A program made the translations under genes and the position numbers. Shown in pieces: positions 1-53,350 of a DNA stretch of 64,000 nt. The stretch's first letter is position 1; every line of letters starts with the position of its first letter. The stretch covers positions 96,001 to 160,000 of the forward strand of contig CH464492.1 in the NCBI GenBank assembly GCA_000002445.1, given 5' to 3'. Origin of the DNA: Trypanosoma brucei. Taxonomy: Eukaryota. The notes below the pieces were generated by a model. It saw only the letters and a list, made by a program, of their open reading frames with translations, was not told the origin of the DNA and did not search any database.

Positions 1-765
1 CGTGGCTTCGACTTGGTCGTCGGCCTGATTTGTTATGCAGAGGTCGGCTTCTCCTGAGTCTGCCCCTTTGCCGCATACGCAAAGGGCGATCGTAATTAGC
101 GCTTCTGCTTTGGCAGATGTCCCTGACGTGCCGCACAGGGCTGTGTGGCTGGCTGCAGCGTTTTTTAGTTTGTTGTTGTCAAGCTTTGTCGCCGCGCTGT
201 CCGGTTGGCCAAAAAGGCCTGTATTTAGGGCTTGTATGATGTTTGCTGGCGTATCCGGGGCTGCATCCTGTGTTAGGCTGTTAAGTTCGACATTTATTGC
301 GGCTGCTTGTTCAGCAACGGGCTGTAGCAACTGCAGATAAAGTTGCTTGTCGGTGCCGCTTGCCCCTCCAAGGCCTGCCCGTTTTTCGATTGCTGCCGCT
401 TTGTTTGGTTCCTCCAGCGCCTCCTCCGCTGCTATCCAGTCTGGCCAGCGCTCTTTTTGAATGGTGTCTTCCCCTTGTTTTGGCGTTGTATACTCCGGCC
501 TGGGTTTGCCTTGCCCTGGCTTGGCGAATTTCTTGCGCCACTCCGCGTCACTTAAAGATGTATTTAGTTGTAGGATGTCTAGATAATCAGTCTTTGCCGT
601 ATAGGTGTCGTCCGGTGTTTGTGATATTCTCGTCGGTGCAGTTAACAGTTCGCACAGGTTGTGAAAAAGATGTGCGTGCTCGCCGGTCGTTGGGCCGGTC
701 GCGGTCCGGGATACTATGAGCAGCATCGCTAAATATGCTGTCGCTTGTTGGAGATAGCCTAGCAT
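1..765 (-). CDS. VSG-A, B-type VSG N-terminal domain, 5' partial gene running off the window. My translation begins MLGYLQQATAYLAMLLIVSRTATGPTTGEHAHLFHNLCELL...LNTSLSDAEWRKKFAKPGQ...ALCVCGKGADSGEADLC
   Basis: Minus-strand ATG at 765-763 with an open frame to the window edge. It is missing from the ORF track because no stop lies within the window. It has a signal peptide and then the same N-terminal motifs (HLFxxLC, LNxSxSxxxW) seen in VSG 28163-29578. Confidence 0.8.
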   Translation of the reverse strand, partial: MLGYLQQATAYLAMLLIVSRTATGPTTGEHAHLFHNLCELLTAPTRISQTPDDTYTAKTDYLDILQLNTSLSDAEWRKKFAKPGQGKPRPEYTTPKQGEDTIQKERWPDWIAAEEALEEPNKAAAIEKRAGLGGASGTDKQLYLQLLQPVAEQAAAINVELNSLTQDAAPDTPANIIQALNTGLFGQPDSAATKLDNNKLKNAAASHTALCGTSGTSAKAEALITIALCVCGKGADSGEADLCITNQADDQVEAT

Positions 766-1634
766 GCTTCACTTTGTTATGGTGCTTCTTTGATTTGAAG
801 GCAGTTAGGTGGTAGAATTAGGGGATACAAGTTTTCTGCTGCTGCTGTTTTGCCTTAGTTATGCTCATTACCTACGCAATAATCCTGTATCATTGTTAGC
901 ACATTTCCTTTATATCAGCCGTTAAATCGAATAAAAATTCTACAAACAATATGAGCTTCCATTTCATAAACTAAATTGTTAACATATACATTCGGTACAA
1001 GATAGGCAGCCACGGCCGCCGCCATCACCAGTGTTTTGCCTGTTCATTTTCGTGTAAAATGTGGTTCTATTTTAAGTCAAATAGAGTATTTTCGAGTGTT
1101 TAATCTTAAGGTTCTCTACGGTTAAGTTTCCTAGCCGCAGAGTCAAGTCGTGATTTATATATTTTTTACCCTTTATTTTGCGAATAATATTCTGATGTTC
1201 TAAAAGACGCTTCTTCCCATCTCTTTCTAAATATTCCCTTAATCAGGAACTTCAATGTTGTTGGTTCTTCCATATGTTCCACTGTCCGGCGAGGGTTGCT
1301 GTCACTTATTGCTTTCCTTTAAACTTACAGATCCAGAAAGATGTAACGGAGATGAAATGTCTATTAGAAATGTCTGCAACATTGGGTCCACATACTTTAT
1401 TAAGTAGGATCATTTCTACTAAATATACCATTTCAGCTATGTTTTCAAGCCAATTTGGGTTTCATATGGGAAAATAGAAAAACTTGCTTTCTATTTAATA
1501 TACTTCCAATTTTCATGAGTGTAGCTTCTAGTGAGTCTCATTATTTTCTTCACTATCTCTTCAGGATGTCACAGTTTTTTGTGCTTTTACTTTTTTGTTT
1601 TGATGTACTTTGGAGTTTAACGCTGCTGGAAACG

Positions 1635-1649
1635 ATAAGCAGCATTGCT
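1635..1649. repeat. Left copy of the 15-bp target-site duplication ATAAGCAGCATTGCT flanking ingi#1
   Basis: An identical 15-mer sits immediately after the ingi poly(A) at 6911-6925. Confidence 0.85.
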
Positions 1650-1657
1650 CCCTGGCG

Positions 1658-4600
1658 ATGCCGGCCACCTCAACGTGGTGCCAGGGTCCAGTACCCCGTA
1701 TCATCGGGGGAAGCCAAGAGCCAGCAGCGTTCCTTTCATGGGGAACAATGCTGTGCTCCGGCTACGGCATCATACAGCACAGGGATCAGCAGCGTCTTGC
1801 TGGGACACCGTCTTTCATTTGTCGGTCCCTGGGCACGTGCCAGCGTGCCATCAGCAGTATCATCCGCACTAAGATGCTGCTGTCCGGTGATGTGGAAGAG
1901 AATCCCGGCCCGTCGTTGCGCGGGATGCAGTGGAACTGCGCCGGGCTATCTCAAGGAAAGAGATTAGCACTCCACAAAACCCTTGTTGATGAGCGGATCG
2001 CCTTTTGTCTGTTGAGCGAGACAAGGATGACGCCTGGAGAGGCGGCTTGCTTTAGCGTTGCTGGCTACCAACATCACGGAATAGCTCGTAACTGCAAAGG
2101 AGGTGGTGTATCAATACTAGTGAGGGAGGACCTACCAGTCGAGACCGGTATGGCCGTTATTGGTCGCATTGAACAAGTGCATGCAACAATTCACCTTGCA
2201 CGTGGAACGGCGCTGACTGTCACGTCGGCATACATCCCACCAAAACACACCTTCACGGCAACTGACCTAGATACGCTTCTGACGACTGACGGTGCCCAGC
2301 TCATCGGTGCAGACGCTAACGCACACGCGTTGGCATGGGATCGCGCGAGCCCACCAAATACCAAGGGTGAAACCCTCACACAGTGGTGCATTGACAACCA
2401 GTTTCTGGTCTGCAACACTGGTGAGTGCACCAGGTACGCGCGCCACCACGGGGAGTCCAGCCCTGATGTGACACTGTGAAGGAATTGCACAGTGTACACG
2501 TGGACATCGCTGTATTCTCCCGATAGCGATCACCATCACATATTTTTCGACGTTATCGTTGGAGACGACACAGATGCACTGAGTTGCCCGCGGCTTCGAA
2601 AGCCCATGTACGCATGGCTAAAAGCTGACTGGAGGAATTTCCGTCTCAAGGTTGACGAGCTCTGCAGGAAAATTGGTAGAGAGAAGAACGTCAACACCAT
2701 GGAACAGAAATTGAGCTCCGCCATCCGCATTGCGACGAAGGTCTCCGTCCCCCGTGGTTGCAGAGCAACGCCACCACATTGGACACCTGAGCTCGCGAAA
2801 CTCGATGAAGAGATCGCTGGATGCGGACCCTCCCACCGAAGGGAAAAGTTGGTAGCCACGCGTAAGCAGATCCTGGACCGTACCACAAAGAAGAGATGGA
2901 GCACGCTATGCTCCAGACTTGCGGTGTCAGACCGCTGCAGTTGGCACATTGTCAAGAAGGTATATGCGCCACGACCACTAACCACACCGGCTGTACTTGT
3001 AGATAACGCGGCCATCACGGACTACCGTCAAGCTGAGAGGTTCAGTAAACTGTACTCGTCCCGCGCAAGAAGGCACCCCGACTCACACCCACCGGCACCA
3101 ATAAAGACGATAGCGAGTGAGTTCAGTCCCATCACGATGGCTGAACTACGGAGATCGATCAAACTGCTACCGAGTGGATCCGCAGCCGGACCTGATTGCT
3201 TATACAACGAGGCACTGCAACATCTCGGCAGAACAGCGCTGAATGTTGTTCTGAGGCTATTCAATGAGAGCCTACGAACGGGAGTCGTGCCGCCTGCATG
3301 GAAGACTGGTGTTATCATCCCCATCCTGAAGGCCGGAAAAAAGGCGGAGGACCTCGATTCTTACAGGCCTGTGACGCTCACGAGCTGTCTCTGCAAAGTC
3401 ATGGAGCGCATAATTGCCGCGAGACTTAGAGACACTGTTGAGTCCCAGCTGACGCCGCAGCAATCAGGCTTTCGCCCCGGATGCTCAACGCTCGAACAAC
3501 TCCTGCACGTCCGCGCTGCCCTCTGCCGTCCCACGCACCAATATCGTACGGGTGCTGTATTCGTTGACTACGAGAAGGCATTTGATACAGTAGACGACGA
3601 CAAAATTGCGAGGGAAATGCACAGAATGAAGGTATCACCCCACATTGTGAAGTGGTGCGTATGATTTCTGAGTAACCGAACTGGCAGAGTGAGATTCAAG
3701 GAGAAGCTTTCCAGAAGCAGAACATTTGAGCGAGGAGTGCCACAAGGAACTGTCCTTGGCCCAATCATGTTCATTATTGTCATGAACTCGTTGAGCCAAC
3801 GCCTTGCAGAGGTGCCGTTACTGCAGCACGGATTCTTTGCAGACGACCTAACGCTACTTGCGAGGCACACAGAGAGGGATGTCATCAACCACACACTACA
3901 ATGCGGTCTAAACGTGGTGTTACAGTGGTCAAAAGAGTACTTCATGTCTGTCAACGTAGCGAAAACAAAGTGCACACTCTTCGGGTGTATAGAGCGCCAC
4001 CCCCTTACATTACAACTGGACGGTGAAAGAATAGGAGCTGACAGGACACCGAAGCTTCTAGGAGTAACATTCCAGTGTCTGCAGGGGATGGCAACACATG
4101 CGGCCGAAACGAGACGCAAGATGGACTTCCGACTACTGCAGATAGCAGCCATCTCAGCTTCTACATGGGGGCCAAGACGACAAGTACTGAGAGCTTTTTA
4201 TCTAGCACTCGTACAGGCACACACCATGTATGGCATTGAGGTATGGTACTGGGACGCTTCGGAACGAAGTCGCGACCTCCTTGCATCAGCACAACACAAA
4301 GCCAGTCGCATCATAGCCGGCATACCGCATGGGACGCGCAAAGAGGACTCTCTGCTGGAAGCAAACCTCCTGCCACTCAAGACGACCACTCTTGTGCGCA
4401 GCATGAAATTCATGCTGATGTGTGAGTCACGAGGCGGATGTTTGCGGCGCAGTGCTGAAGAAGTATACCACAGCAAACACCCAGTCAGAGCCCTACATTC
4501 CCGTATCATGCGGTCCTACCCCCACCTCCGCATTGAGCCACGCGAAAACCCACTAGAGACATCGACGCTCCGCCACAGCTGCCGACCGATATTTCACACG

Positions 4601-6637
4601 CAGATAAAGGCTGTGTGCGCTGATGACCCTGACGATGTCAAAAGGGAGGCTTCCGAAAAGTGGATTGAACGACATTTTGCACGGAGGGGGAAGGAGCCAC
4701 CGCGGCGAGAGCACTACGAATTGTGGACTGATGGATCCGTGTCCCTCGGTGAGAAGTCCGGAGCAGCTGCCCTGCTCTATAGAAACAACACGCTGATTTG
4801 TGCACCTAAGACAGGAGCAGGGGAACTTTCATGCAGTTACAGAGCGGAATGCGTAGCATTAGAGATAGGACTGCAACGGCTGCTGAAATGGCTTCCGGCA
4901 TACAGAACCACACCGAGCAGGTTGTCCATCTTCTCTGACTCGCTGTCAATGTTAACAGCACTGCAGACAGGCCCCCTAGCCGTAACGGACCCAATTCTAA
5001 GACGACTATGGAGGCTTCTGCTTCAAGTTCAGAGAAGGAAGATACGTATCCGACTGCAATTTGTGTTTGGCCATTGTGGCGTGAAACGGAATGAGGTTTG
5101 CGATGACATGGCCAAAAAGGCCGCAGATTTACCACAGTTGCGAGACACATGGATCCCCGACATCATTGCTTATGCGAAGCGAGTGCTTAGGTCGGAAGAA
5201 GTCCATGAGAACACTCATAGGTTTGGTATCACGGGCAACCACTTTCCAACAAAACATAAGGAAGAACTGACGAGGGAAGAAGAAACGGCACTGGCACGCT
5301 TTCGGGTTGGGTCTTCAAGACACTATGGATGGATGTTGCGAAAGATTAACCCGAGTGTGCCTCCACAGTGCCGATGGTGCAACCCGCAACATGCAGAGAT
5401 AGGGCCAACAATACAAACAGCCCCAACTGTTGCGACACGCACTCTTCAAAGAACCTCCGAACCGACCAAATGTACGGAATGTGATGCCACATACCAATGC
5501 CGCTCGAGTGCTGTAACGCATATGGTAAACAAACATGGCTTTGTGCGAGCTGATGCCCTCCGGAGGATCAAATACGGCGATGCAACACCTGCAGTGGATA
5601 TCCCCCCGGAGCCCCCTCCAGTGGTGGCGATCGTTCCTCTACCATCGAGCACACGAGTTACGATGAGACCGCAGGTGCTTCATTGTACCATCTGTGCCTC
5701 CAAATTCGCAATGCCAGGCAGACTACTACACCACCTTAGAACAATACATGGCATAGGCAGCGGTAGTTGCCGCGTGAAAAGGGGGCGAGAGAACGAGGAC
5801 TCAGAGCAAGGAGATGGTAGAGCCCCAGCAGCGCCAGCCTCTCAGGATACACGGAAGCTGCCGTTTCAATGTGACCTGTGCGAGGCGAGCTTCGGTACAC
5901 GTTCTTCCCTGACACTACACAAGAAATTCAAACATAAAAGCATAGTGACGGAGGACGGTACCGTGGTGTTGGTGCAATTCCCTCGTAAGCGTGCCCGTGA
6001 GGGAAACGTTGACGTCCCGGGGAAGGGCGAGGTGCAGTGCGGTGTGTGCCAAAAAGTGCTCAGTTGCAGGGACTCCCTCATCCGACACTGTAAGGCTTTC
6101 CACAAAGGTGAGGGAGTCGAGCTTAAATGCAGCAAAAGCACAAAATTGTGTGCCACTGATTCCCCGCATACAAACACATCCATGTTGGTGTGCCCGACAT
6201 GCGGAAGGCAGTGTGCTAGCAAAACTGGCCTCACCCTACATCAAAAGAAGATGCACGGTATGAAGGTAGAGCGCGCTGTTACCAGCCAACGCGGCGACTG
6301 CGAAGAAACGTCGCTGCACTTGATGAGCTGTCCCGGTTTGAAGGAGTTACGTGTCAGATTTGCGGTAGAAGGTGAGTGTGTGCAGGATGTATGTTTCTCC
6401 AAAAGGCTGGCGCAGTTTCTCATTGCGGTTGAACGGAGCCGGCCGCAGGTGAAGTCCTCACCTAAGGTAACAGTCATACAACCCACTCTCCCTTCTGCAA
6501 CTTCCCCCCTTATTGCCGAGTGTGGAGCCAGCAGGAAAAGCACCGGACGCAGGAATAGTCCAGACACCCTCAGAGACAGAGGAGGTATGCAGTCAACAAG
6601 CAACAAAAACAGAAACAGAAAGAGGGGGAGAGAATAA
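1658..6637 (+). pseudogene. ingi polyprotein ORF (APE-RT-RNaseH-ZnF) split into three frames (1658-2479, 2492-3664, 3689-6637)
   Basis: A TGA at 2477-2479 plus a 2-bp AC insertion relative to ingi#2, and a second frame break near 3664-3689. Canonical ingi has a single ORF of about 1650 aa. Confidence 0.85.
1888..1911 (+). other. 2A-like ribosome-skipping motif DVEENPGP in ingi#1 (LLSGDVEENPGP), just upstream of the AP endonuclease domain
   Basis: This is the exact D(V/I)ExNPGP consensus. The same motif occurs at 43084-43107 in ingi#2 and at 48411-48434 (minus) in ingi#3. Confidence 0.8.
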
Positions 6638-6910
6638 TAAACGAATAACAAAAAACAAAACAAAAGGATTGCTAATTGACATCTTTGGGAGAGTCCGGGG
6701 TGAGGGGGGCTTCTCGCCCCATCTACTGTATTCCGTTCAACTGCGGAGCTACAACAAAAATTATAGAGGGTGTGTTAGGATGAATAAAAAAGGGAGACTC
6801 TGCCACAGTCGCCAGACCGATAGCATCTCAGGGCTCTACGGTGATGGCTGATGGCCGCGCCAGTTGGGAGAAACTCTCACGAAGGCACGAAGAAAATTAA
6901 AAAAAAAAAA

Positions 6911-6925
6911 ATAAGCAGCATTGCT
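6911..6925. repeat. Right copy of the ingi#1 target-site duplication ATAAGCAGCATTGCT
   Basis: Identical to 1635-1649. Confidence 0.85.
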
Positions 6926-7199
6926 TGAAGTAATCAGCAAGGAAAGGACTTTGTACACATTTCCCTATACTCCCTACAGTCACTCTATATTAAAAAGCCT
7001 TATTTTCTAAAATTTAAGTCACAGCATCGAGGAAATATCTACACACTTACCATTGCTTTCAGTAAAAGTTTAGAATGTTACTTTAACGTGTCACTGACTG
7101 AACATTGACTGAATTACAAGTCTTTCGTCAAAATTCCATTCCACTATTTCTATTGATTTAAGTGCTTCTTTTTCCCAGATCATTTAGTCTTCACCACCC

Positions 7200-7615
7200 C
7201 TCTTATTATAAGGTTCGTATACACACTCACAACACTCTCCTGTTATTATCATCATTATTATTATTACTATCATTATTACTGCTCTTATTATAATATTCGT
7301 ATATACACTCTCACTCTCACAACACTCTCCTATTATTATTATTATTATTATTATTATTACTGCCCTTATTATAATATTCGTATATGCATACTCACAACAC
7401 TCTCCTATTATTATTATTATTATTACTGCTCTTATTATAATATTTGTATATACACACTCACAACACTCTCCTATTATTATTATTATTATTACGGATCTTA
7501 TTATAATATTCGTATATACACACTCACAACACTCTCCTATTATTATTATTATTATTACGGATCTTATTATAATATTCGTATATACACACACTCACAACAC
7601 TCTCCTATCATTATC
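7200..7615 (-). repeat. 70-bp-repeat array of about 6 units (82, 81, 66, 66, 66 bp periods), canonical orientation on the minus strand. It is the 5' boundary of the VSG-A cassette.
   Basis: Tandem units CTTATTATAATATTCGTATATACACACTCACAACACTCTCCTATTATTATT..., the reverse complement of the T. brucei 70-bp-repeat core, with variable (ATT)n tracts. Confidence 0.9.
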
Positions 7616-8109
7616 GTTACATCACTATTTTAATGCTAACAAGTATCCATAAGTGACTTAAATAAACAAAATAAAGTAAATTAGAATAACACTAACTTGT
7701 CATACCATTATCCATACTGCTGTTGAACCACACGCTACATTAATACCAAATTGCAAACTTTAAATATTTTGAATTTTTTAGTTATCATGGTGTTCGCGAA
7801 TTTTTATATTTGCATTTAATAGTGTTAAAATATATTAAATCATAGTATATTTAGAAAATTATCTAAAAAAATTTCATAATTATTATAAAATTGAGCAAAA
7901 ATCCTTAGAGTTCTGGAATACTAAAATTCTACCTAAACTACAAATTGTGGTGAGAAAAGAGCAAATTTTCTATTTAAGAGAATGATTGAGTTTTTTAAAG
8001 CATTATTTTTTCTATTTTCAGCCAAGAGCCTTGGCGCAGTCTATTTCTAATTTCCTTTTACTTTTTTTGTAGCTGTTGTCTCTGCTTGCTCCATCTTCTG
8101 CTACCGCAT

Positions 8110-9447
8110 TTAACTGCTCTGAAATTGGTTTTTATCTATTTCGCACTCCCCTTTCCCGCTTTCCCCACCTTTCCATATGCAGTTAGCATCAATACAAGCA
8201 GCTTTGTTGTTTTTGTGTGCGGTGAAAATGGCTTGTTATTTCTGTGGGTTTCCCGCGCCCTTTTGCTCTGTTTGGGCCTGTGCCTGCGACAGGGGTGGGA
8301 CCAGTTTGCCTATAACTGCCGCCTGGTAGACTGCTATTGCTTTTGCGTAAGTTGTTTCTATCGTTGCTGCGTAGAGGCTTTCTTGAGCTTGCTGCAGCGC
8401 TCTTTTTTCAATTGCTACTGCTGCTTGGCGCATCTTGTTGTACCACGGCTGTGTTTCGTGTGTCGTTGTTGATGACTTCTTGAAAAAGTTTGTGTACTCG
8501 ACGCAGGTGTTGCCGGCCGTCCCGGCGCATTCGCTCCCTGTGTTGCTGCTTTTGCCGATCCAGACGCTGTTGTCACTTGCTGCTCCTTGTTGTGTGAGGC
8601 TGCCGTGCCAAGCTTCCAGTGCAGCCGCTATTTCGTGGGGTGTGATGACGTTCTCAGTGTTTAGTGCGCACGAAGCTTTGAGGTCCGCCCATTTTGTTGT
8701 GATCGTCCCCTGATTGTCTATTTCCGCACCGGTAAACGCGCCGCTGCATTCTTTTGCTGCGCCCCCGCTGCCGCCGCGCATACAGAGAAAATCGCCACTG
8801 ATCGACTTTCGCTTGTCGTCGCCGTTGCAGTGGCTTGCCCAGTTGCTGCCCGTACCAAAGCTTGTTGATTGCGTGAGTGCATCTGCTGCCGCTCCGTCTT
8901 CGTATAGTGCTTCACGAAGCAGTTTTTGGATGTTGTTAGTCTCGTCGTTTGTTATAAAGTCCTTGGCTGCCTTCCACTTCTTGCTGATTTCGACTGCTTT
9001 CGCTGTTAACTCCAGGAGGCGATTGTGGGCTGCGAATTGCTGTCGAGCGTCTGCTATTGCTGGGAAGTCTTTGTCTTCCTGTGTTCCAATCTTTTTCTTC
9101 TCCGCCTCCTCTTTGTCTGTTCGCCACGCTCCCCAGGCTGCTGCTCCTCCGAGTGCGCCCGCCTCTTTTTTGCCTTCTGCCGAGAGCTTTTCGTATGCGT
9201 TGCTATTGTTCTTTGAGTTGAACAAAGCGTGCCATTCTTTTGGTGAAGTTGACATGTTGGCTGCTCTTAGTGTTGCTATGTGGGTTTCGATATTTGTTGT
9301 TACGGTCATGTCTGAAAGTTTGCCAGTGGCCGCTTGCAGTAGCCTACACATGGTCCGGTGTTCGCGGGCGTCTTCGTCTGCTGCTCCTTCAGCTGCCCGG
9401 CCCACTATTAGCAGGAAAAGAAGGTGGTTAAATTGTTCTTTCTTCAT
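8110..9447 (-). pseudogene. VSG-B, a B-type VSG with a frameshifted C-terminus
   Basis: The 403-aa ORF (8236-9447) starts MKKEQFNHLLFLLIVGRAAEG and stops before any C-terminal domain. The Cys-rich tail (CIDANCIWKGGESGKGECEIDKNQFQSS) continues in another frame down to the TAA at 8110-8112. Confidence 0.8.
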
Positions 9448-11066
9448 ATCCTTTTTTTCTTGATCCTATGTGGAGAGTTAGAGCAAACACTTCCATTGCA
9501 CGAACTTGCAAGCAACTCGTGGTATTTGTGTTTCCGCGCTGTCAATGTTTCGGAAGTTTATAAGGCAACTTTTTTGCCAGAGTCTTTCTGGTGGCAGCTT
9601 TTGGCCTCCTTTGCTTTCGAAAGATGGTTTTTATACATGTGCGAGACGTCTTTCGCTGATTTCTTTTTGGTCAATTACCGCCTATTTCTACTTTATCGTG
9701 TTCCTCGGTTCCTAAATACCCTCTACGAAAATCTCTATTACTTTATAAAAATTTCCCCAAAGCAAAATCTCCCCCTTTCCCTCTTTTATTTCTATGTTTT
9801 TCTAATTTTCTTTTCTTATCTTTTTTAAATATCCCGTATTCGCCTCTGAGCTACTGCAGAAAAATACACTTTCTTGCTCAATCAGGGGGCTTTAGTCACT
9901 ATTTACCGATACAAAAGTTTTTTCAGTAACTGTGCTGTATATATCACCTATTTTCACGTAAAGATGTTTGTTTTATGTGATAAGGCTGCTGCTGATTGCC
10001 GGCTCATCGCGAATGCTAAGCAAATGCAGCTGCGAGTATACTCTCTAAATTCACCCCAACCACCGCTTCTTAGTTTCTACTGCATTTTCCAGTATATATT
10101 CTATTTTGTGCTTCGGGTTTGCACCAAGCAGCTGAAACACTCTTTATAAGTCTATTCTGTTTCAAACGCAATCTGTACGGCGCCGTCGCCTCCTTATATC
10201 TTTACAATTATTGCTTTTCTTTACTCTTAACGATGCATAGAGGTGTAAGAGGATGAAATGCTACTTGAAAATAGCTGCTTTTTTACTGATTTCCTTCTAC
10301 TAAGATAAATTCAAACTCACTCTTGTATGTACTCTTTTGTTTAGTGTAGTTAAGCTACCATGTAAGTTGTATTTTTCGTACCATTATCTGCTGCATTCCA
10401 TGAATCAATAGAATTATCGCTCGTATCTGGTAAATATTTCCATCCACTTGAGTTTAGCGTCTACTAAGGATCGCCGTTTCTACAGTATTTTTTTACTGCT
10501 CTTATTTCTGACTGTATTTTACTTTTGACGCGTTTTGTTTTGCTTAATGTAGATATTTATGAATTTCGTGTCAGGTTTCATGTGCTTTCGCAAGGTTTTG
10601 TGCAATTGTTAGCTTTTTGGTTTTCTATCACCGCCAGCTTGAGTAGTTAATTCTGTTACAAAACGTATTTTTAGACAAATTGCACGCTCTTTATAAGGTG
10701 TGATCTCTGCTCTTGATACCTTTTTTAAATAAAAGTTCTCTATCCGGAATTAATGCATTCTTTGAATTGGTCTTTAGAACATATTTTCCGTGGTACATTT
10801 AGTATACTTTCACATGTACTGCTTCTTTGTGCTAAATGTAGGAACAGAAATTGACCCTTTCAGTGAATTCTGTATCTCTATAATTATATCCCTTATTCTC
10901 TTCTTTTGTATAATGATGATCTTTGTCGCATTTGTGTTTGAAACTGCACATATTCCATGCCCTCTTCTTTGTCTTCTCTTCATTACCATCCCATTTCCTT
11001 ATTCTCATGGCACACCTTTCACTGTTTTGAGTACCCATATTTTGGATATTCACTTAACTTTAAGTT

Positions 11067-11143
11067 CTCTTATTGTAATTTTTGTATATACACACTTACA
11101 ACACTCTTCTGTTCTCATCATATCATTTTTATCATTATTGCTG
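11067..11143 (-). repeat. Single degenerate 70-bp-repeat unit upstream of VSG-B
   Basis: TGTATATACACACTTACAACACTCTTCTGTTCTCATCATATCATTTTTATCATTATTGCTG. Confidence 0.6.
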
Positions 11144-11416
11144 TTATAACCCTAGCTAATATTCATAAAATCATAAAGTGACACAGTTTTAAAATTTCAA
11201 AATAGCACTCATTTTCAGTGCCCTATGACCTTACTACTTTGCGCCCATAGGCCACTATCTCAGCAAAATTCTATATTTTCAAGTCTTTAAAAATTTTCAA
11301 ATTTTTCCACTTCATTAAAAAAATTATAATATATCAACTTCTAGAAACCTCTCTCAATATAGCAAATTTTCATAAATTTCATAAAATTAACAAAATATTA
11401 TAAAAGTTTTAGAATG

Positions 11417-12615: not shown

Positions 12616-12631
12616 GTGTTAAAATATATCA
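12616..12631 (-). promoter_or_regulatory. Conserved VSG 3'UTR 16-mer TGATATATTTTAACAC (exact) belonging to VSG-D
   Basis: Its reverse complement GTGTTAAAATATATCA sits on the + strand. An exact second copy is at 39424-39439 (VSG-M) and a 2-mismatch copy at 18933-18948 (VSG-F). Confidence 0.75.
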
Positions 12632-12670
12632 GATAGCAAAATTCTTTTTAAAGGGAAGGGGAAAATTCTT

Positions 12671-14202
12671 TTAGAAAAGCAAAGCCATAAATGCAGCAGA
12701 AACCATGAGGGCGAAGTGTTGTTTAGGAGGAAACTAAAATCTTTGCAAGTTTCACCCTCCCATTTGTAGCCAGCAGCCTCTCCACAATCTTTCTCTCCTT
12801 TCCCCTTGCATTTCTCCTCTTTCTTTTCTTCCCCTTTGTTCTTCTCTGCTGCCACGCAATTTCCATCTTTGAATTCGCAGCCATCTTCTGTTTTGCACTT
12901 TTCTTTGTTGGTTATCGCTGCGCATTTTTTGCTTATTTCTTTTCTCACTTCAGGACTGCTTGATGCAGTTGCTGCCGTCCTTGAGGCTATGAGCTGTTTG
13001 CCCTGCAAAAATGTTAGCACCGTTGCAGCGCTGTCGGTACCTGCTGTTTCGAAGATCGTCTTGTCGAAGGTCGTTTCTCTTACTTTCAGATTGAGTGGCG
13101 TCTTGTCAATCGAATCTGTTATTCGTGCCGTGAACGCGGTTTGGTCGCTGCCGAGGTAAGCGTCTGTTAGAGCCTTTTTTGCCTGCTGCTCTGTTGGTGC
13201 TTTTCCACCTGGGGCTATCAGGTCCGTTAGTGCCTGCAGTAGTTTGTCGTCTGCTCTAACCGCTGCCCATGATATTCGGTGTATTGGTGTATAAGTGGGT
13301 TTTTTGAGCTGACGGATGTTGCAGAGCGCATTTCCTAGAGTATCCTTGTCGTATTCTGTGTATGGGGCCGTCGGGTTGATTTGCGTGCAGGTTTTGGTTT
13401 CCACATTTGTGAACAGATTGATATCAATGGTGCTGTAAGTTGTTGCCTTCTTTGTGAGCGCCGTTGCCATTGCGTTGTTGGCCGCTGTGTTAAAGTCGCT
13501 GCCCCTTTCGATGCAGCCGCCGTCCTGCATTGTTGAAGCAATGGAGCTGCTGGACAGCTTCCCTTTGCAATGTGTGGTGACTGTGTATGTCGTCGCCGGT
13601 TTGGTCACGTCGATGATCTTGATTTTGGTGTGGCTCTCGTGAGCTATGTCGTTTGTTTTTACCGCTTCTTTTTCTGTGTCTAGCGTGCAGGTGGCTGCTT
13701 CTAGCTTGAACGCGGCCGTGCTTGGGCACTTTACCATGCCTGTGACGCTTTCTAGCTGTGCAGCGGTTGATGGCGCTGTACTAGTTACTTTTGCTGATGT
13801 CGACTCTGTCCTGTGCAAGGTTAGCATAGCGGCTTCCTGCTGCTTTATGATCCGCACAGCATCATTGTAGCGCTTGGCAGCCGCTTCCGTTTCTCGGTTT
13901 AGTGTGTCAATGCCTGCTTCGGTCACTGCCGCCATTGCAAGGAATGCTATTTCTGTTTGCTTGTCTTGGCTGAACGCGGCTTTTATTCTGTAAGCCATTG
14001 CTGTCTTTATCGCGGTTGTCCGGATTTCTTTTGCAGAGGGTCGAGCTTGCTCTAGTTTGCTCGCCAGTTTATGCAGGTACTGGGCCGCTGAACAAGCAGT
14101 TTTTACTTGCTGGGTGGCCGTATCCTCGATGTCCGCGGCGCTTACAGGCAAGATACTGACAAGTGACATAACAAATGCGTGCCACAGGCTTTGTGACTTC
14201 AT
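12671..14202 (-). CDS. VSG-D, a near-intact B-type VSG with a 1-nt frameshift inside the GPI signal
   Basis: The uninterrupted ORF 12619-14235 has a signal peptide from internal Met MKSQSLWHAFVMSLVSILPVSAAD, a full N-domain and a C-terminal domain. After ...CKDFSFLLNN the frame slips (TSPSWFLLHLWLCF...) and reads through the 3'UTR. A +1 frame restores KQHFALMVSAAFMALLF-stop at 12671. Confidence 0.85.
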
Positions 14203-15002
14203 TTTTCTATGCTGTTTTGCTTTGGCTAGACACAAACTGTGGTTTTGTTGCTTGGCTTGTGTCTGACTGCCTTATATGGTGTCGGTATATGAGGAAAACG
14301 GTAAATGCACACCTGTGTTTATTAAGTCTGTAGCCCTTTGTGTTTTGTGTTGTTTCCCAATTGTTTTAAGTTGCTTCGCTTCACAATATTGACCTCTATT
14401 TAAATCCTTTGCCTCCTTTTATTCATTATGTCAAAAAATTTCACACGGCACTATTTACCTTTATTGACATATTCTGCTGGTTGTAAAACCTGCAAGTACT
14501 TCACGGCCATTCTGCATTCACTTCACCACCTTCAGTGCTTATCGTCTGGCGCCACCATCAGATTAAGCACCAGCTCCGTAACCACCTCTGCCGCCGTACC
14601 AAAATATTTTCGAATAAAATATAGGGCAGAATCGGGTCCTTTTCATTAATAAGTTTCTTACGTCCTGTGCTTCTCAATTTTTTTCACACTGTCATTTTAT
14701 TCTGTATTTTTCCTTTTCTTCGCCTGCTGTCGCCTTTTCTGTTAATAAAGTACAGAACGCATTTATCCTGTACAGTGAACTCTGTTTGTTTATCATTTCC
14801 TTGTGCATAATAATGCTCACCTCTGTGTCTGTGCAGGAAAATGCGCATATTATATCTACTTTTCTATTTTCCTTCCTGAATTCCTTCAATCATAATATTC
14901 CACGTACTCTCCATCTTGCTCATTGTTTCTTATCACTCACTCACTCACTCTCATATAACCTTTGCTATCGTTTTAACTTCTCGTATTTTTCTCTTCCACT
15001 TA

Positions 15003-15110
15003 GTCATTATTATTATTACTGCTCTTATTATAATATTTGTATATGCACACTCACAACACCGTTTTATAAAAAAAATTGTTATTATTATCGTTATCATTAT
15101 TTTCCCTACA
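15003..15110 (-). repeat. 70-bp-repeat unit or units upstream of VSG-D
   Basis: CATTATTATTATTACTGCTCTTATTATAATATTTGTATATGCACACTCACAACACC followed by a degenerate ATT-rich tract. Confidence 0.8.
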
Positions 15111-15297
15111 CTCACTATTATGACCGTTAATCAATCATAGTGTCCATAAAGTAAACTGAATAAGTCATATTATAATATCATTCATTTTTCATGTCCTTTC
15201 ACTCTGATACTTTATACTTATATGTTAGCATTGCGTACATTGTAAAAAGTTTCATAAATTTCATTATATTTAGAAAAAATTATTTTAATTATTTTAA

Positions 15298-16782
15298 TCA
15301 TAGTAGCAAAAATGCTGCCTTATTAATGACAAAAGAATTGCTTCCTGTGGTGTTTGTGGTTTTTCCATCTCCCTCATCTTTCTTGACTGTTTTTTCCTCA
15401 GGGTCTGGAAAGCATTTTGGTGTTTTGCTACCATCAAATTTGCATCCCGCGTTCTTGCAGATGTCTTGCTCTGTGTGCTCCTTGCAGTCTTCTTTAGAAG
15501 GAGCGTTTTTGGTGGTTTCTGGTTTAGATGAGCAAGATGTGGAGGACGCCACCGTCTTTTCTTCTTTTGCTGCGGCTTCCCCTTGCCAATAAACAAAAAT
15601 CTTTGGTGCAGCTCCGTCTTCTACTATTTTGAGGAGAGATTTTTCGACTTCTGTTGTTCCGTCTTGATATTTTACGTTGCTCTCTGTTAGCGGCGCCACG
15701 CATCTAGTCTTGTGGCCATCTTTGTTCATTCCTAATAATTTTTTGAGTGCTGTTTTTATGTCTTCTGCCTTTTGTATCGCGCCTTCTTTTGTGTACTTTC
15801 CTGTTGCAATTAAGTAACTGGTGTACAGAGTTGACCACTCCGCTTGCTGTGATAGAGTTTCCGGATTCCAATTATCTGGGTCAGTTGGTTCTGGTGGCGC
15901 TGCCACCAGAAATTCGCAGATGGCGTATGCTACTCTGTCGTTATCGCTTGCTGTTTTGGTCTCCGGTTGTTCCACTGTAGCACAGCCTTGTGTCCTGTCG
16001 TCTTTGGCGTACATGCTTGTCTGTTCTGCCGTTAGTCCTGAGTCAGCTGCCACAGATCCCAGGGTGACTTTCAAAGCATTGCTGCCTTCGCTGCCGCTGG
16101 CGTCGCATCGTGTGCCGCCTGTTGCTGTGTCTACGCTGGCCTGCGCCCCTTTTCCTTGCGCCGCCACCTGTGGCAGCCTCGGCGGTGTTGTCGACAGCTT
16201 TAGTAGCTTTATTTTTGTTGCGGCCTCCCAGTTGAACGCTGTTGATTCTACGCCTGTGTCTGTGGCCTTTCTCAGGTCGCAGGTGTCGCGTGTTGATCCT
16301 GATTGTGTTAGCGTGAATGTGCATTTCGCATTGTATGTCGCCTAGCCGGAGGCGTACGCTGCACCTCCTGCTGTTAGCGATGGGCTACAGTACAAAGCTT
16401 CTATATAGCCTATCCTTTCTGAAAGTATCCGCTGTGCCCTTTGGGAAGCTTCCTGTCGCCACTTGAGCTCTTCCGCGTGCTTTTTATGTTGTATCATAGC
16501 GTAAGCGCTGAGGGTGGTGTAAGCCGCTTTGAGCTGTTTGTCGGTCGTCTGAACCACCGCCAGTTGCCATGCTGTTGCATAGGTTTGTAGCTTGTGTATC
16601 AGGTTCCTCCCTGTTTCCGCCTGCTTTGCTATGTATTTTGAAACAGCCGCTAAGTATATAATCTCAGAACACCGGTTGTTGATCGTGTTGCTTGCTGCGT
16701 CGTCTTTGCCGCTGACATTAGTAACAGCTGCCGCGAGCAACAAGCAAGCAAGCACATATTTTCTTGATATCTCCATTTTCAC
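15298..16782 (-). pseudogene. VSG-E, a VSG pseudogene whose N-terminal and C-terminal halves lie in different frames
   Basis: The N-terminal ORF 16342-16782 starts MKMEISRKYVLACLLLAAAVTNVSG. The C-terminal ORF 15298-16167 ends ...GCKFDGSKTPKCFPDPEEKTVKKDEGDGKTTNTTGSNSFVINKAAFLLL. A frame break lies between 16167 and 16342. Confidence 0.8.
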
Positions 16783-18704
16783 CGCTTCTACACAGTATTG
16801 AACTAGTTTATAGTTTCAAAGTTCGGTTTTCGTTTTTCTGCTTTGTTTTGGGGTGCAGGACGCCAACTATGTTGATTCTGTGCAAGGCGAAAAAATAGAA
16901 GAATGGAAAAACTATTGCCTCAGTGCAGCAGCCACTTTACTTCGTTGAGCTAGTTTGTAGGTTTTCTTTTTTAGTCCTTTTGCAAGCTCTATGATCGATT
17001 TATTCCGCCACAATTAACTGTTTTGCATGTCCCCCTTGTCGTCGTTCACCTCAATGCCTCTAAATACCTCTAGGGTAAATATCTCTGTTTTTTCTCAGAA
17101 GACAACCACTGTCTCCACTTGCGAGTTTTAGATTTTCATCATCATGTCTGTATGCACTAGTGTCGTTACTAACTGCACTGGTATTATTTACTGCTGTTGC
17201 GTATTGTTAGGTGTTTTCGCTGGAATTGGCAGCGGATCACACCGTCTGCTTTGCAACTTCTTTTACATAGCTGCCATCACACCTATCGGTAAGTTAGCGT
17301 GTTGTTTTCCTATTGGCATTATTGAAATCTTACCCATGTATGACAGTCTTCGCGCAGTTGTTACAGCTACCGCGAATGTAACTCTTTTAATACGACGATT
17401 TTTTAACAAGTGCAATCTAGCACCCGCTGTTAGTTCTATTCCTCTCCGCTACTTATTTCCTTTTTTCTAACTTAACGATAAAGAAAGCTGTAGGGTTCCA
17501 AATTACATACGGGAAACGGATGCCATTTTCTGTTTTCTTACTGCTTAATTCGATCCACTTGTACTTTTCTAACTCAACTCGTTTCTAACATGCCAAATCT
17601 GCCATTCATATTTGCGTTTTACATTTTACATGCTAATACAGAAAATAACTAAATGTTTTGTGTTCATACAATAACTTTTCCAATTCTGTTGCGTCTTAAA
17701 ACAACTAATTAACACTATTTCTACAGTGTCTTGTGATGTGATAAAGTTTTTTATACTTTTTATTAATTTCTTTGACGCATTCCTCTGCTTACTGCTTATC
17801 CTTCTAAAATTTAGGCGGTCGCAACACTTTCCGAAAGATTTAAAGCAATCATGAGCTAGTTGATTTACTTTTACTCATTCGTGCTTTTAACTCTGCAGTA
17901 CCAAAAACTCTTATACCAATTGTACGGTTTTTCAATGAATCTTTTTTTTGCTGTACAAGTAAAAAATTAGTGTAGCCTTGCCGCTAATTCTATATAATAG
18001 ATAAAGGTCCTCTAACTGTTTATTTGTGCGATACCTTAAGTAATATCCGCTTTATTCGTTTTTAAAGCATGGTAATACATTAGTAGTCGCAGTTTTAAAA
18101 TCAGAAAACCGATAATATTATATTGTTTCACATGAAGACCCAAAATTATTACTGCATCTGATGAGAAAACTTCTGTGTTACATTACAGTTACACAGTCCC
18201 TTCCCCATGTTTCTTCATCTTTTACTGCTTTTTCTTCGAAACAAAAATAAGAAATCACTATCAGATTAATAACCAGAAATGTAACCGTTAGTGCAGATGT
18301 AGCACCTATTCATTTTTTAGTAAAATACTGAGTATCATATCTTCCTTCTATTGTTTTTATTCCGTACGCTGTAATGCATATACTTCTGTTTCATTACATG
18401 CATTGTTTCCTTCTTTTCCACTTTCTGTCAGTGCCTCTGCCAATACCGTAGCATCTCCGTTTAGATTTCAAACTATGTTGTTTCTCTTCTTATTGTCCTT
18501 CATCACCTCCTTGCGTATGATTCCCATCTTCATTTTTGTGTTTCAAGCTGCACATATTCCATCTATGTCTACCTTTTTCTTTCTGAGTTACTCTTAACAA
18601 AATTATTCGTGCGCTCTCTTACTTACTCTTTGTCACTCACTTGAATTTCACCATTTAAAATATTTTGAGTGCTTCTGTTATTTTAGTGCATTCGGTCATT
18701 ACCA

Positions 18705-18945: not shown

Positions 18946-20502
18946 TCAACTTTTAGTATATTTTTTAAAAACAGGAAATTTCATAAATTTAAACCAAAAT
19001 ATTTGAGAGTACTTTAAATATAATAGCAAAACTGCAAGCAAAAGAGGGGCCTTTTTAATGACAAAAGAATTGCTTCCTGTTGCGTTTGTAGTTTTTTCAT
19101 CGTTTTCTGATTTCACTCCCTCTTCAAGTTTACATTTTCCCTCTTTGAATTCGCACCCATCCTTACCGTTGCACCGAGTTTTATCAGCTATTCCATCACA
19201 TTCAGCCACCTTAGCATCATCTTTTGCATCTGTTTGGATGCCACTTGTTGGTTCCCGTTGTATCACCGTTAGACGCTGGTGCAGCAGCCGGGCCAGTACA
19301 GCATGCGTGTCGTCGTCTAACGTTAGTTTCTCGATTGCCTTCTGTTTTATATTATCGCCTTCACGGACCGGCACCGTTTTTGTTTTAATCAGCGGCTTGA
19401 ATTTGGCGTCGAAGCCGTGCGTTCCTTTGCCGTACGCTGTCCTGAGATATGTTTTTAAATCGCTGTTAGTTGCAATGTCGGATTCTTTGACTAAATTCGT
19501 GAATTTTTTGGTGCAACTGGCTACTGCTTCTTGAATTACTGCGTCTTCCGCAAGTGTGTCGCCGCTTAGTTCTGGCATTGTATGGCCTTCCGCCTTCGTC
19601 TCCAGAGCTTCGCAGATGGCGTCGGCTATTTTTTCCCCCCTTGTGGTGCCGGCACCCTTTTGCTTTGCATGGGCTGCGCAGACCTTTTTGCCGTTTTCTT
19701 CCTTGTATATTGGTGTAGTTTGTGTTGTCGCTATGCTGTATTGCGACGGCTTGTAGCTGGTTGATACCGTATCCCCATTTGCCCAGCTGCAGCCGGCCAT
19801 TGCCTGGCCGATTGTTTTGGTTCCACCGCCGCTGCTGGTGCAGCCGTTGCTGGCTACAGTAAACGTTAATTTGTCGACTTTCTTGAGTTTGTCCAAAGCG
19901 TTTAAGGCTGTTAATTTGAGCTGTGTTGCTTTTGCTGGGTCAGGTTGCTTGTTGGCTATGGTTCTGTCGGTGTCTGGCTGCGATATCGAGCAATCCGCCG
20001 AGTTGCTATGGGCTGTCTCCAGCTGCAGCATTGTCGTGCCGGCGCTGTTGGTGCCGTGGAGGGTTCCAGCCTTCACAGTGACTGCTAACTTACTGTTTTC
20101 GATCTCTGCGAGTAAAACACCTCGTTGCTCTTTGGAGTGCTCTAGTCCGCTCAGCAACGCGTTTGGTGGCTCCTCCGCTTGCTTTTGCCGAAGCTTCAGT
20201 ACCTGTTTTGCTTTGACGGCTAAGGCGTTTATTAGACATTGGTCTTCCGGGCTGTCTGCCGCCGCCGCTGCTATTTCGTATTTTGATGCTGTTAGCGCTG
20301 CTTCCTGCAGCCCTCGGTTTCTGTCTACGATCTTGCTGCGCAGGTGTTCTGCTATTTTCTTTAGATAAAACTCCTCGTCACAAAGTGTTCCTATTCCTGT
20401 CGCCGCCTCGTCGTTGGTGAGCTGTGCTATTGTGTACTGTATACTAGTAAAGAGCACTAATGTTAGTACGATCTGCTTGTTCGGAATTATTTTCTTTGCC
20501 AT
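18946..20502 (-). CDS. VSG-F, a full-length VSG (518-aa ORF) whose stop codon is lost after the GPI signal
   Basis: Starts MAKKIIPNKQIVLTLVLFTSIQYTIAQ (signal peptide) and ends ...CEFKEGKCKLEEGVKSENDEKTTNATGSNSFVIKKAPLLLAVLLL followed by 24 extra residues (YLKYSQIFWFKFMKFPVFKKYTKS). In VSG-E the TGA stop falls right after the conserved TTGCTACT octamer. Here that region reads TTGCTATTATATTT and no stop follows. Confidence 0.85.
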   Translation of the reverse strand: MAKKIIPNKQIVLTLVLFTSIQYTIAQLTNDEAATGIGTLCDEEFYLKKIAEHLRSKIVDRNRGLQEAALTASKYEIAAAAADSPEDQCLINALAVKAKQVLKLRQKQAEEPPNALLSGLEHSKEQRGVLLAEIENSKLAVTVKAGTLHGTNSAGTTMLQLETAHSNSADCSISQPDTDRTIANKQPDPAKATQLKLTALNALDKLKKVDKLTFTVASNGCTSSGGGTKTIGQAMAGCSWANGDTVSTSYKPSQYSIATTQTTPIYKEENGKKVCAAHAKQKGAGTTRGEKIADAICEALETKAEGHTMPELSGDTLAEDAVIQEAVASCTKKFTNLVKESDIATNSDLKTYLRTAYGKGTHGFDAKFKPLIKTKTVPVREGDNIKQKAIEKLTLDDDTHAVLARLLHQRLTVIQREPTSGIQTDAKDDAKVAECDGIADKTRCNGKDGCEFKEGKCKLEEGVKSENDEKTTNATGSNSFVIKKAPLLLAVLLLYLKYSQIFWFKFMKFPVFKKYTKS

Positions 20503-42366: not shown

Positions 42367-42435
42367 ATAATAATACTAGTATACAGACGCACAACACACC
42401 CATATCACTACCATTATTATGACTATCATAACCTA
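42367..42435 (-). repeat. Degenerate 70-bp-repeat remnant upstream of VSG-M
   Basis: CATAATAATACTAGTATACAGACGCACAACACACCCATATCACTACCATTATTATG. Confidence 0.5.
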
Positions 42436-42639
42436 GTTAACATAAATAAAATAAGAAAACAAACAAATGAGAACACCACTCATTTTTCATACTCTTCCAC
42501 TTTACTACCTTTCACCTATTAACCATCATCATGCATATTTTACTTACTATAGTTATTTTACTTATCTAAATTACAATTACTAAAAACTTTCAAGTGTTAT
42601 AGAAAAATTATCACAAATGTAATACTGTCTTCAAAACAA

Positions 42640-49697: not shown

Positions 49698-49790
49698 CAT
49701 TACTATTATTCCTATTACTGCTTTTATTATAATATTCGTATATACTCACACTCACAACACTCTTCTATCATTATTATTATTATTATAACC
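49698..49790 (-). repeat. 70-bp-repeat unit bounding a cassette slot that now holds only ingi#2 and ingi#3
   Basis: CATTACTATTATTCCTATTACTGCTTTTATTATAATATTCGTATATACTCACACTCACAACACTCTTCTATCATTATTATTATTATT. Confidence 0.85.
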
Positions 49791-53215: not shown

Positions 53216-53350
53216 ATTGCTGTTAGTAAAATTTCAAAAATAAACATAATAAAATAAATTAGAATATCATTTGTTTTTCATACCATATTACTATGCAACT
53301 TTACACCGATAACTCACTATGATACAACAACTTACCAAAATTTTAAAATT

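What the first reader, a model, noticed from the sequence alone, without database searches (positions are those of the whole stretch)
1635..6925. Intact-ended ingi with a perfect 15-bp target-site duplication inside the VSG-A cassette, between its 70-bp repeats and its ATG
ATAAGCAGCATTGCT occurs immediately before the ingi 5' end (1635-1649) and immediately after its A13 tail (6911-6925), as expected of a clean retrotransposition with no later rearrangement. The element lies about 885 bp upstream of the VSG-A ATG and about 275 bp downstream of the 70-bp array at 7200-7615, inside what would be this cassette's transposed unit. A gene conversion that uses these 70-bp repeats as its 5' boundary would copy an extra 5.3 kb of retroposon. 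That could make this VSG a poor or unusual donor. It could also carry an ingi into an expression site.
Basis: seen in the sequence. Interest (0 to 1): 0.6.

Follow-up and report, generated by a model that had tools for sequence, protein, structure and literature searches.

The report
Ordinary ingi retroposon inside VSG cassette
A full-length but coding-defective ingi retrotransposon really did insert cleanly between a silent trypanosome surface-antigen gene and its upstream 70-bp recombination repeats, but this is an ordinary, already documented kind of event in the Trypanosoma brucei reference genome.

Summary
ATAAGCAGCATTGCT occurs exactly twice in the window (1635-1649 and 6911-6925). The two copies abut a 5261-bp ingi (1650-6910, + strand) that has the canonical CCCTGGCGATGCC 5' signature and a poly(A) tail.

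The element sits 884 bp upstream of the ATG of a minus-strand B-type VSG (1-765) and about 275-290 bp from a roughly 6-copy 70-bp repeat array (7218-7614).

Corrections:
- The tail is A12 if the duplication is 15 bp.
- 15 bp is 3 bp longer than the 12 bp reported for Tbingi.
- The ends are intact, but the ORF carries two in-frame TGA codons (2477, 3662), in the endonuclease and RT domains.

The window is T. b. brucei TREU927: three of its VSGs are exact matches to TREU927 RefSeq proteins.

The functional reading is untested and not new:
- About 46% of this array lies in 70-bp-to-VSG intervals.
- The window's second ingi sits in the same kind of interval.
- Lister 427 expression site BES2 is already described as carrying an ingi 3' of its 70-bp repeats, and it can be activated.
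- VSG-A is probably a pseudogene.

I could not obtain an empty site from another strain. Verdict: real, clean, fairly recent TPRT insertion, of low interest.

The parts
1..765 (-). N-terminal 255 codons of VSG-A (B-type VSG). ATG at 765-763. The gene runs off the window start.
   Evidence: Translation. Pfam VSG_B E=3.7e-32. 100% identical to ARB50700.1/P0001.
766..1634 (-). VSG-proximal part of the 70-bp-to-VSG interval (co-transposed-type region). AT-rich (GC 0.36) and unique in the window.
1625..1634 (+). Partial match to the Tbingi target signature GTxGGxTxxx^ (here GCTGGaaacg^). It places the first-strand nick at 1634/1635.
   Evidence: Signature from PMC3820030. GG lies at -7/-6 from the TSD start, as in three T. 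equiperdum ingi loci. Only 4 of 10 specified positions match.
1635..1649 (+). Left copy of the target-site duplication, ATAAGCAGCATTGCT.
1650..6910 (+). Full-length ingi (Tbingi) non-LTR retrotransposon, 5261 bp, oriented opposite to the VSGs.
   Evidence: It is 99.5% identical to the ingi in T. equiperdum locus L004.
1650..1728 (+). Conserved 79-bp 5' signature of ingi/RIME (Pr77 region).
   Evidence: Sequence. The first 15 nt are identical in five full-length ingi copies from T. equiperdum. The signature is described in PMC2323293 and PMC1874656.
1658..6637 (+). ingi ORF in a single frame: AP-endonuclease, RT, RNase H and C2H2 zinc fingers. It is interrupted by two TGA codons.
2477..2479 (+). 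In-frame TGA (codon 274, endonuclease domain). It is TCA in all other copies examined, so it is private to this copy.
3662..3664 (+). In-frame TGA (codon 669, inside RVT_1). It is shared with the window's second ingi and is TCA in seven copies from T. equiperdum and T. b. gambiense.
6899..6910 (+). Poly(A) tail. A12, or A13 if 6911 is counted.
6911..6925 (+). Right copy of the target-site duplication.
6926..7217 (-). Distal part of the 70-bp-to-VSG interval.
7218..7614 (-). 70-bp repeat array of about 6 units, TAA-rich on the VSG strand, upstream of VSG-A.
   Evidence: TRF. Pattern and blast matches.

Best explanation
A Tbingi (ingi-clade non-LTR) retrotransposon copy inserted by target-primed reverse transcription into the spacer between a silent subtelomeric VSG and its 70-bp repeats, in T. 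b. brucei TREU927.

**Steps shown by the sequence.**
- The element is full length, with the canonical 5' signature, a poly(A) tail and a perfect 15-bp target-site duplication.
- The first-strand nick position (1634/1635) fits the GG-anchored Tbingi target signature.
- The second-strand nick was 15 nt downstream rather than the usual 12.

**Inferred steps.**
- The insertion is evolutionarily recent. The TSD is perfect, only about 10 changes are private to this copy, and it is 99.5% identical to an ingi at an unrelated T. equiperdum locus.
- The copy was probably mobilised in trans, or decayed afterwards, because its ORF has nonsense codons in the endonuclease and RT domains. One of these is shared with another ingi in the window.
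- The consequence for antigenic variation is most likely nil or small. The element is a passenger in a cassette whose VSG is probably a pseudogene, and it landed in the class of DNA that makes up nearly half of the array.
For: - Exact 15-mer at both junctions and nowhere else.
- Element ends and length.
- Colinear alignment with seven other ingis.
- Domain content Exo_endo_phos, RVT_1, RNase_H, zf-C2H2.
- GC 0.53 inside the element against 0.34-0.36 in the flanks.
- GG at -7/-6 from the TSD start, as in L001a, L002 and L004. Signature and 12-bp rule are from PMC3820030.
- TGA codons are single C>G changes from TCA. One is private, one is shared with ingi2.
- With the ingi removed, the 70-bp-to-ATG distance is 1176 bp, typical of the array.
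- The window's VSGs are exact matches to TREU927 proteins XP_828100.1, XP_828102.1 and XP_828103.1.
- BES2 is a published precedent.
Against: - No empty site from another strain or paralogous cassette could be obtained. The insertion is inferred from its hallmarks only.
- The TSD is 15 bp, not the canonical 12.
- The target signature matches at only 4 of 10 specified positions.
- Pseudogene status of VSG-A is indirect, because the gene runs off the window.
- Neutrality of the insertion is an inference, not a measurement.
Confidence: 0.82

Rival explanations
1. The ingi materially changes the behaviour of this cassette as a gene-conversion donor. Conversions starting in the 70-bp repeats would have to copy about 8 kb instead of about 2.7 kb. 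This would make VSG-A a poor donor, or would deliver an ingi into an expression site.
For: - The geometry is as described: 6452 bp against 1176 bp.
- 70-bp repeats are the usual 5' homology for array VSG conversion (PMC4858185, PMC10374056).
Against: - No expression or switching data were available here.
- VSG-A is probably a pseudogene. It would then act only as a mosaic donor, where coding identity rather than 70-bp repeats sets the boundaries.
- BES2 is activatable despite its ingi.
- The location is what random insertion would often give: 46% of array DNA, and ingi2 lies in the same class of interval.
Confidence: 0.12
2. The ingi acts as a portable block of recombination homology. Array cassettes carrying an upstream ingi (this one and the one at 39417-49784) could pair with the ingi in BES2-type expression sites, so that the 5' conversion boundary lies in the ingi rather than in the 70-bp repeats.
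For: - Two cassettes in one 64-kb window carry a full-length ingi in the same orientation relative to their VSG.
- ingi copies are 96-99.5% identical over 5.2 kb.
- ingi1 and ingi2 share about 8 variants, including a stop codon, that are absent from the T. equiperdum and T. b. gambiense copies. This is compatible with sequence exchange between copies.
- ingi/RIME are said to recombine and cause rearrangements (PMC2854126).
Against: - Entirely inferential.
- The orientation and sequence of the BES2 ingi were not available.
- BES2 belongs to a different strain (Lister 427).
- The shared variants can equally reflect strain- or subfamily-specific source elements.
Confidence: 0.05
3. The structure is an assembly artefact, or a product of homologous or ectopic recombination, rather than a retrotransposition.
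For: - ingi is a multi-copy repeat and subtelomeric arrays are hard to assemble.
- ingi2 in the same window shows a rearranged 3' junction.
Against: - A misassembly or ingi-ingi recombination would not create a perfect 15-bp duplication of unique flanking DNA exactly at both canonical element ends.
- The reconstructed empty site is unique in the window.
Confidence: 0.01

Closest known systems
Tbingi/TbRIME retroposons of T. brucei (ingi4 subclade), surveyed genome-wide in TREU927 by Bringaud et al. 2004 (cited in PMC3820030) and Khan et al. 2015 (PMC4660242)
   Same: 79-bp 5' signature, length of about 5.25 kb, EN-RT-RNaseH-zinc-finger ORF, poly(A) tail, flanking TSD, GG-anchored nick site, and residence in VSG-rich subtelomeres.
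   Different: The TSD is 15 bp (14 if the first A is tail) instead of the size-conserved 12 bp. The upstream signature is matched only weakly (4 of 10 positions). The ORF has two nonsense codons.
Lister 427 bloodstream expression site BES2 (TAR129, VSG 427-9/VO2): 'ingi element 3' of 70-bp repeat' (Hertz-Fowler et al. 2008, PMC2567434)
   Same: [quoted passage not shown]
   Different: BES2 is a telomeric, promoter-driven, activatable expression site in another strain. This locus is a silent internal array cassette. The sequence, orientation and flanks of the BES2 ingi could not be compared here.
ingi copy in T. b. equiperdum GCA_003543875.1, CM010681.1 (locus L004, 5426-10679)
   Same: 99.5% identical over the full length. 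Perfect TSD and poly(A) tail. It belongs to the same young subfamily.
   Different: It lies in a chromosome-core context beside housekeeping genes. It has the canonical 12-bp TSD (TTTATTTCTTTG). It has TCA, not TGA, at codons 274 and 669.
Second ingi of the same window (42845-48089)
   Same: Full length, same orientation, and also located between a minus-strand VSG and the next upstream 70-bp repeat. It shares the TGA at codon 669.
   Different: 96.6% identity and many frameshifts. No TSD. Its A9 tail is fused to an inverted 581-bp ingi 5' fragment, so it is older and rearranged.

Membership tests
Tbingi (ingi/L1Tc clade non-LTR retrotransposon) | Conserved 79-bp 5' signature beginning CCCTGGCGATGCC | tested here: met
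   Window 1650-1728. The first 15 nt are identical in L001a, L002, L003 and L004.
Tbingi (ingi/L1Tc clade non-LTR retrotransposon) | Length of about 5.25 kb, colinear with other ingi copies | tested here: met
   5261 bp. Full-length alignments at 96.5-99.5% identity to five T. equiperdum copies and to ingi2.
Tbingi (ingi/L1Tc clade non-LTR retrotransposon) | Single long ORF encoding AP-endonuclease, reverse transcriptase, RNase H and C2H2 zinc finger | tested here: inconclusive
   All four domains are found in one frame with no frameshift. Two in-frame TGA codons split the endonuclease and RT domains, so this copy is not autonomous unless the stops are read through.
Tbingi (ingi/L1Tc clade non-LTR retrotransposon) | 3' poly(A) tail | tested here: met
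   A12 at 6899-6910.
Tbingi (ingi/L1Tc clade non-LTR retrotransposon) | Flanking target-site duplication | tested here: met
   Perfect 15/15 repeat at both junctions.
Tbingi (ingi/L1Tc clade non-LTR retrotransposon) | TSD size conserved at 12 bp (PMC3820030) | tested here: not met
   The TSD is 15 bp, or 14 if the first A belongs to the tail. L004, L001a and L002 show 12-bp TSDs.
Tbingi (ingi/L1Tc clade non-LTR retrotransposon) | Upstream target signature AxxxxxxxTxxxGTxGGxTxxx^xTxTxxTxxxxx | tested here: inconclusive
   With the nick at 1634/1635, 4 of 10 specified positions match, including the GG at -7/-6. With a 12-bp register only 2 of 10 match (sequence, signature).
Tbingi (ingi/L1Tc clade non-LTR retrotransposon) | RIME halves at the two ends | not tested
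Silent array VSG cassette | VSG N-terminal domain ORF | tested here: met
   VSG_B E=3.7e-32.
Silent array VSG cassette | 70-bp repeats upstream of the VSG, in array orientation | tested here: met
   About 6 units at 7218-7614. The same orientation is seen at ten other sites upstream of minus-strand VSGs.
Silent array VSG cassette | Intact VSG (C-terminal domain, GPI signal, 3' conserved elements) | not testable with these tools
   The gene runs off the window start. The only identical protein (P0001, 427 aa) ends within the C-terminal domain and has no Trypan_glycop_C hit.
BES2-type 'ingi 3' of 70-bp repeat' arrangement | Telomeric expression site with promoter and ESAGs | tested here: not met
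   The window is an internal array of more than 10 tandem VSG cassettes without ESAG ORFs. It resembles BES2 only in local arrangement.

The most novel reading that the evidence does not exclude
ingi elements lodged between 70-bp repeats and array VSGs are not mere passengers. They either travel with the VSG into expression sites during duplicative conversion, which would explain the origin of BES2-type structures, or they provide 5 kb of alternative upstream homology that links ingi-bearing cassettes to ingi-bearing expression sites. Either way they would bias which VSGs are activated.
Probability: 0.08. Interest if true: 0.45.

Novelty: already known. Interest (0 to 1): 0.14.

Why it matters
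If the functional reading were true, retroposon insertions would be one more flank-encoded factor affecting VSG activation probability, and a route by which mobile elements enter expression sites.

As it stands, the locus is a textbook TPRT insertion in the TREU927 reference genome. Its practical value is limited to two uses:
- It is a likely presence/absence marker between T. brucei strains, because the neighbouring VSGs have Lister 427 orthologues.
- It is one data point that Tbingi second-strand cleavage can occur 15 nt rather than 12 nt from the first nick.

Tried and rejected
**Orthologous empty site.** None of these gave genomic context:
- Exact-protein contig look-ups for P0001, window 8236-9447, window 18946-20502 and P0055 all returned 'not on record'.
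- A metagenome scan for the left flank plus TSD found nothing.
- The homology search with the neighbouring VSG returned only VSGnome proteins without contigs.

**Paralogous empty site in the window.** The reconstructed 1158-bp pre-insertion sequence matches only itself, apart from one 68-bp 76% match at 10205-10270.

**Rfam.** A permissive search of 1-8000 for an HDV-like ribozyme or other RNA in the ingi 5' end gave no match at E<=0.1.

**Marcello & Barry 2007** (VSG archive paper) is not held in the library.

**A canonical 12-bp TSD plus 3 coincidental bases.** Rejected as less likely. The GG anchor of the target signature fits only the 15-bp register, with 4 against 2 of 10 positions matching.

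**Inverted ingi fragment next to ingi2 as a self-copy (hairpin or twin priming).** Rejected. It is only 96.4% identical to ingi2.
Full report

Yes. ATAAGCAGCATTGCT occurs exactly twice in the 64-kb window, at 1635-1649 and 6911-6925. The only other match within two mismatches is at 716-730, and shuffles expect 0.29 such matches.

The 5261 bp between the copies (1650-6910) begin with CCCTGGCGATGCCGGCCACCTCAACGTGG, which is the conserved 5' signature of trypanosomatid ingi/RIME retroposons. They end in a run of A. The element aligns end to end with seven other ingi copies: one in this window, five in T. b. equiperdum and one in T. b. gambiense. Identities are 96-99.5%. GC content is 0.53 inside the element against 0.34-0.36 in the flanks.

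Small corrections:
- The A run ending at 6910 is 12 long. The structure is A12 + 15-bp duplication, or A13 + 14-bp if the ambiguous first A is given to the tail.
- By similarity the 70-bp units start at 7218. The region from 7200 holds a partial unit.

**2. What surrounds it?**

Window 1-765 on the minus strand is the first 255 codons of a B-type VSG (Pfam VSG_B, E=3.7e-32). The ATG is at 765-763, 884 nt from the ingi 5' end.

On the other side, 274-292 nt beyond the right duplication, lies an array of about six 70-bp repeats (7218-7614).

The whole window is a head-to-tail array of minus-strand VSGs. Each is preceded, at higher coordinates, by one to a few 70-bp units in the same orientation.

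Three of the VSGs are exact matches to T. b. brucei TREU927 proteins XP_828100.1, XP_828102.1 and XP_828103.1, on a 286-kb contig. The window is therefore from the reference genome. Two of those proteins are also identical to Lister 427 VSGnome entries. The VSG next to the 70-bp array (8236-9447) is 98% identical to Lister 427 VSG 1430. The array is thus shared between strains.

**3. Anatomy of the element.**

From ATG 1658 to the stop at 6635 there is one reading frame with no frameshift. It encodes AP-endonuclease (Exo_endo_phos), reverse transcriptase (RVT_1), RNase H and C2H2 zinc fingers.

The frame is broken by two TGA codons:
- Codon 274 (2477-2479), in the endonuclease domain.
- Codon 669 (3662-3664), in the middle of RVT_1.

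Both are single C>G changes from the TCA found in an intact 1656-aa T. equiperdum ingi. The first is private to this copy. The second is shared with the window's other ingi, and is TCA in all seven copies from other subspecies. This copy cannot make its own enzyme unless the stops are read through. It was either mobilised in trans, as RIME is, or mutated after insertion.

Its closest relative in hand is an ingi in a chromosome-core region of T. equiperdum (L004). The two differ by 28 substitutions and 7 gap columns in 5261 bp, which is 99.5% identity. About ten changes are private to the window copy. Together with the perfect duplication, this indicates a fairly recent insertion. For scale, coding sequences of T. 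b. brucei and T. b. gambiense average 99.2% identity (PMC2854126).

**4. Mechanism.**

The hallmarks are those of target-primed reverse transcription.

Published work states that Tbingi/TbRIME have a size-conserved 12-bp duplication. They are preceded by the signature AxxxxxxxTxxxGTxGGxTxxx^xTxTxxTxxxxx, where ^ is the first-strand nick (PMC3820030).

Three T. equiperdum ingi loci that I fetched obey this, each with GG at -7/-6 from the duplication start:
- L004 has GGaTgaa^TTTATTTCTTTG, a perfect 12-bp TSD.
- L001a and L002 have degenerate 12-bp TSDs.

In the window the sequence is GCTGGaaacg^ATAAGCAGCATTGCT. The GG is at -7/-6 only if the duplication starts at 1635. A 12-bp register puts AA there. 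The match is weak overall: 4 of 10 specified positions, against 2 of 10 for the 12-bp register.

I therefore read the first nick as canonical (1634/1635) and the second-strand nick as 15 nt rather than 12 nt downstream. This is a minor departure from the family rule. It is inferred, not shown.

**5. Does the position mean anything?**

Removing the ingi and one copy of the duplication restores a 70-bp-to-ATG distance of 1176 bp. That is squarely within the range of the other cassettes here: 719, 770, 865, 1326, 1620 and 1735 bp, with a few longer. It also agrees with the 'approximately 1.5 kb upstream' reported for minichromosomal VSGs (PMC4858185).

Summed over the window, with ingis removed, such intervals make up about 46% of the DNA. 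A random insertion therefore lands in one nearly half the time.

The second full-length ingi of the window (42845-48089) has the same orientation. It also lies between a VSG (39417-40703) and the next upstream 70-bp unit (49724-49784).

**6.

They are reasonable inferences from the standard model. In that model, 70-bp repeats supply the 5' homology for duplicative VSG conversion, and activation frequency depends on that homology (PMC3467770, PMC10374056). But they are neither tested nor new.

- Hertz-Fowler et al. 2008 list Lister 427 BES2 (VSG 427-9/VO2) as deviating from the consensus by an 'ingi element 3' of 70-bp repeat'. They note that BES 2, 4, 7 and 15 carry extra sequence between the 70-bp array and the VSG, and they record BES2 as functional and activatable (PMC2567434). 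An ingi in that position inside an expression site is thus known and tolerated.
- VSG-A is probably a pseudogene.
  - The only protein identical to its first 255 residues (ARB50700.1, 427 aa) ends in '...DCKQKGHCK', within the C-terminal domain. It has no GPI signal and no Trypan_glycop_C hit.
  - Its 90% cluster contains no TREU927 EAN/XP entry, although neighbouring intact VSGs have them.
  - About two-thirds of array VSGs are pseudogenes. They contribute through mosaic conversion guided by coding identity (PMC3467770), for which the upstream ingi is irrelevant.
  - This status is indirect, because the gene runs off the window.

**7. What could not be done.**

The decisive comparison is an empty site with a single 15-mer in another strain. 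It was out of reach:
- Exact-protein contig look-ups failed for VSG-A and for neighbouring VSGs.
- The metagenome scan for the left junction found nothing.
- The homologues found are VSGnome proteins with no genomic context.
- No paralogous empty site exists within the window.

**8. Verdict.**

The feature is a real, clean and relatively young Tbingi insertion in the spacer of a silent VSG cassette of the TREU927 reference genome.

- The kind of element, its mechanism, its association with VSG regions and its occurrence between 70-bp repeats and a VSG are all in the literature. ingi/RIME have also been surveyed genome-wide in TREU927 (Bringaud et al. 2004, cited; PMC4660242), although I could not check that this particular copy is listed.
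- The only slightly unusual details are the 15-bp duplication and the nonsense codon shared with a second ingi 40 kb away.

Interest is low. The most novel reading not excluded is that ingis act as hitch-hikers into, or as recombination homology with, expression sites. I put that at under 10%.

Noticed in passing
window 42845-48670: A second full-length ingi (42845-48089, + strand) is 96.6% identical to the first and has many frameshifts. Its A9 tail is fused directly to an inverted 581-bp ingi 5' fragment (48090-48670), which is 96.4% identical to both ingis and so is not a self-copy. There is no TSD. Both ingi2 and the inverted fragment start with the variant CCCTGCTAATGC instead of CCCTGGCGATGC. 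The pair lies between VSG 39417-40703 and the 70-bp unit at 49724-49784.
   Followed up: partly
window 3662-3664 and the homologous codon of ingi2 (42845-48089): The in-frame TGA at ingi codon 669 (RT domain) is shared by the two ingis of the window. It is TCA in all seven copies examined from T. equiperdum and T. b. gambiense. ingi1 and ingi2 share about 8 such variants, although ingi1 is otherwise 99.5% identical to a T. equiperdum copy. Possible causes are a subfamily marker, a defective master element, or gene conversion between copies. This is not resolved.
   Followed up: partly
window 1889-1912: A 2A-like peptide motif, DVEENPGP, lies at codons 78-85 of the ingi ORF, just upstream of the endonuclease domain. 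From my own recollection, 2A-like motifs are described for L1Tc/ingi elements.
   Followed up: no
window 7218-7614 versus 11068, 15006, 21368, 27795, 31314, 39119, 49724, 59176, 62391: VSG-A's cassette has the longest 70-bp array in the window (about 6 units). Most other cassettes have 1-2 units or only fragments.
   Followed up: no
window 51535-59175: There are 7.6 kb without any ORF of 200 aa or more between VSG 50116-51534 and the next upstream 70-bp remnant. This is far longer than other cassette spacers and contains no ingi similarity. Its content was not examined.
   Followed up: no
window 12619-14235, 18946-20502, 39417-40703 (minus strand): Three long VSG-position ORFs (428-538 aa) gave no Pfam hit at E<=1e-5. 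One of them (18946-20502) is nevertheless an exact match to a TREU927 protein annotated as VSG. The Pfam VSG models miss part of the repertoire.
   Followed up: no
VSG-A (window 1-765) versus the Lister 427 VSGnome: Four neighbouring VSGs have relatives among Lister 427 VSGnome proteins: two identical, one 98% identical, and one sharing a 90% cluster. VSG-A has only a 100% match of unknown strain (ARB50700.1) and 72% matches from EATRO1125. The VSG-A cassette may therefore be absent or diverged in Lister 427.
   Followed up: partly
L001 (T. equiperdum CM010672.1, locus coordinates 5993-11244 and 12899-16971): An intact 1656-aa ingi ORF (RHW74236.1) has a 12-bp TSD with a one-base indel. It lies tail to tail with a second, inverted ingi about 1.6 kb away, next to an LRR (ESAG8-like) gene.
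   Followed up: no
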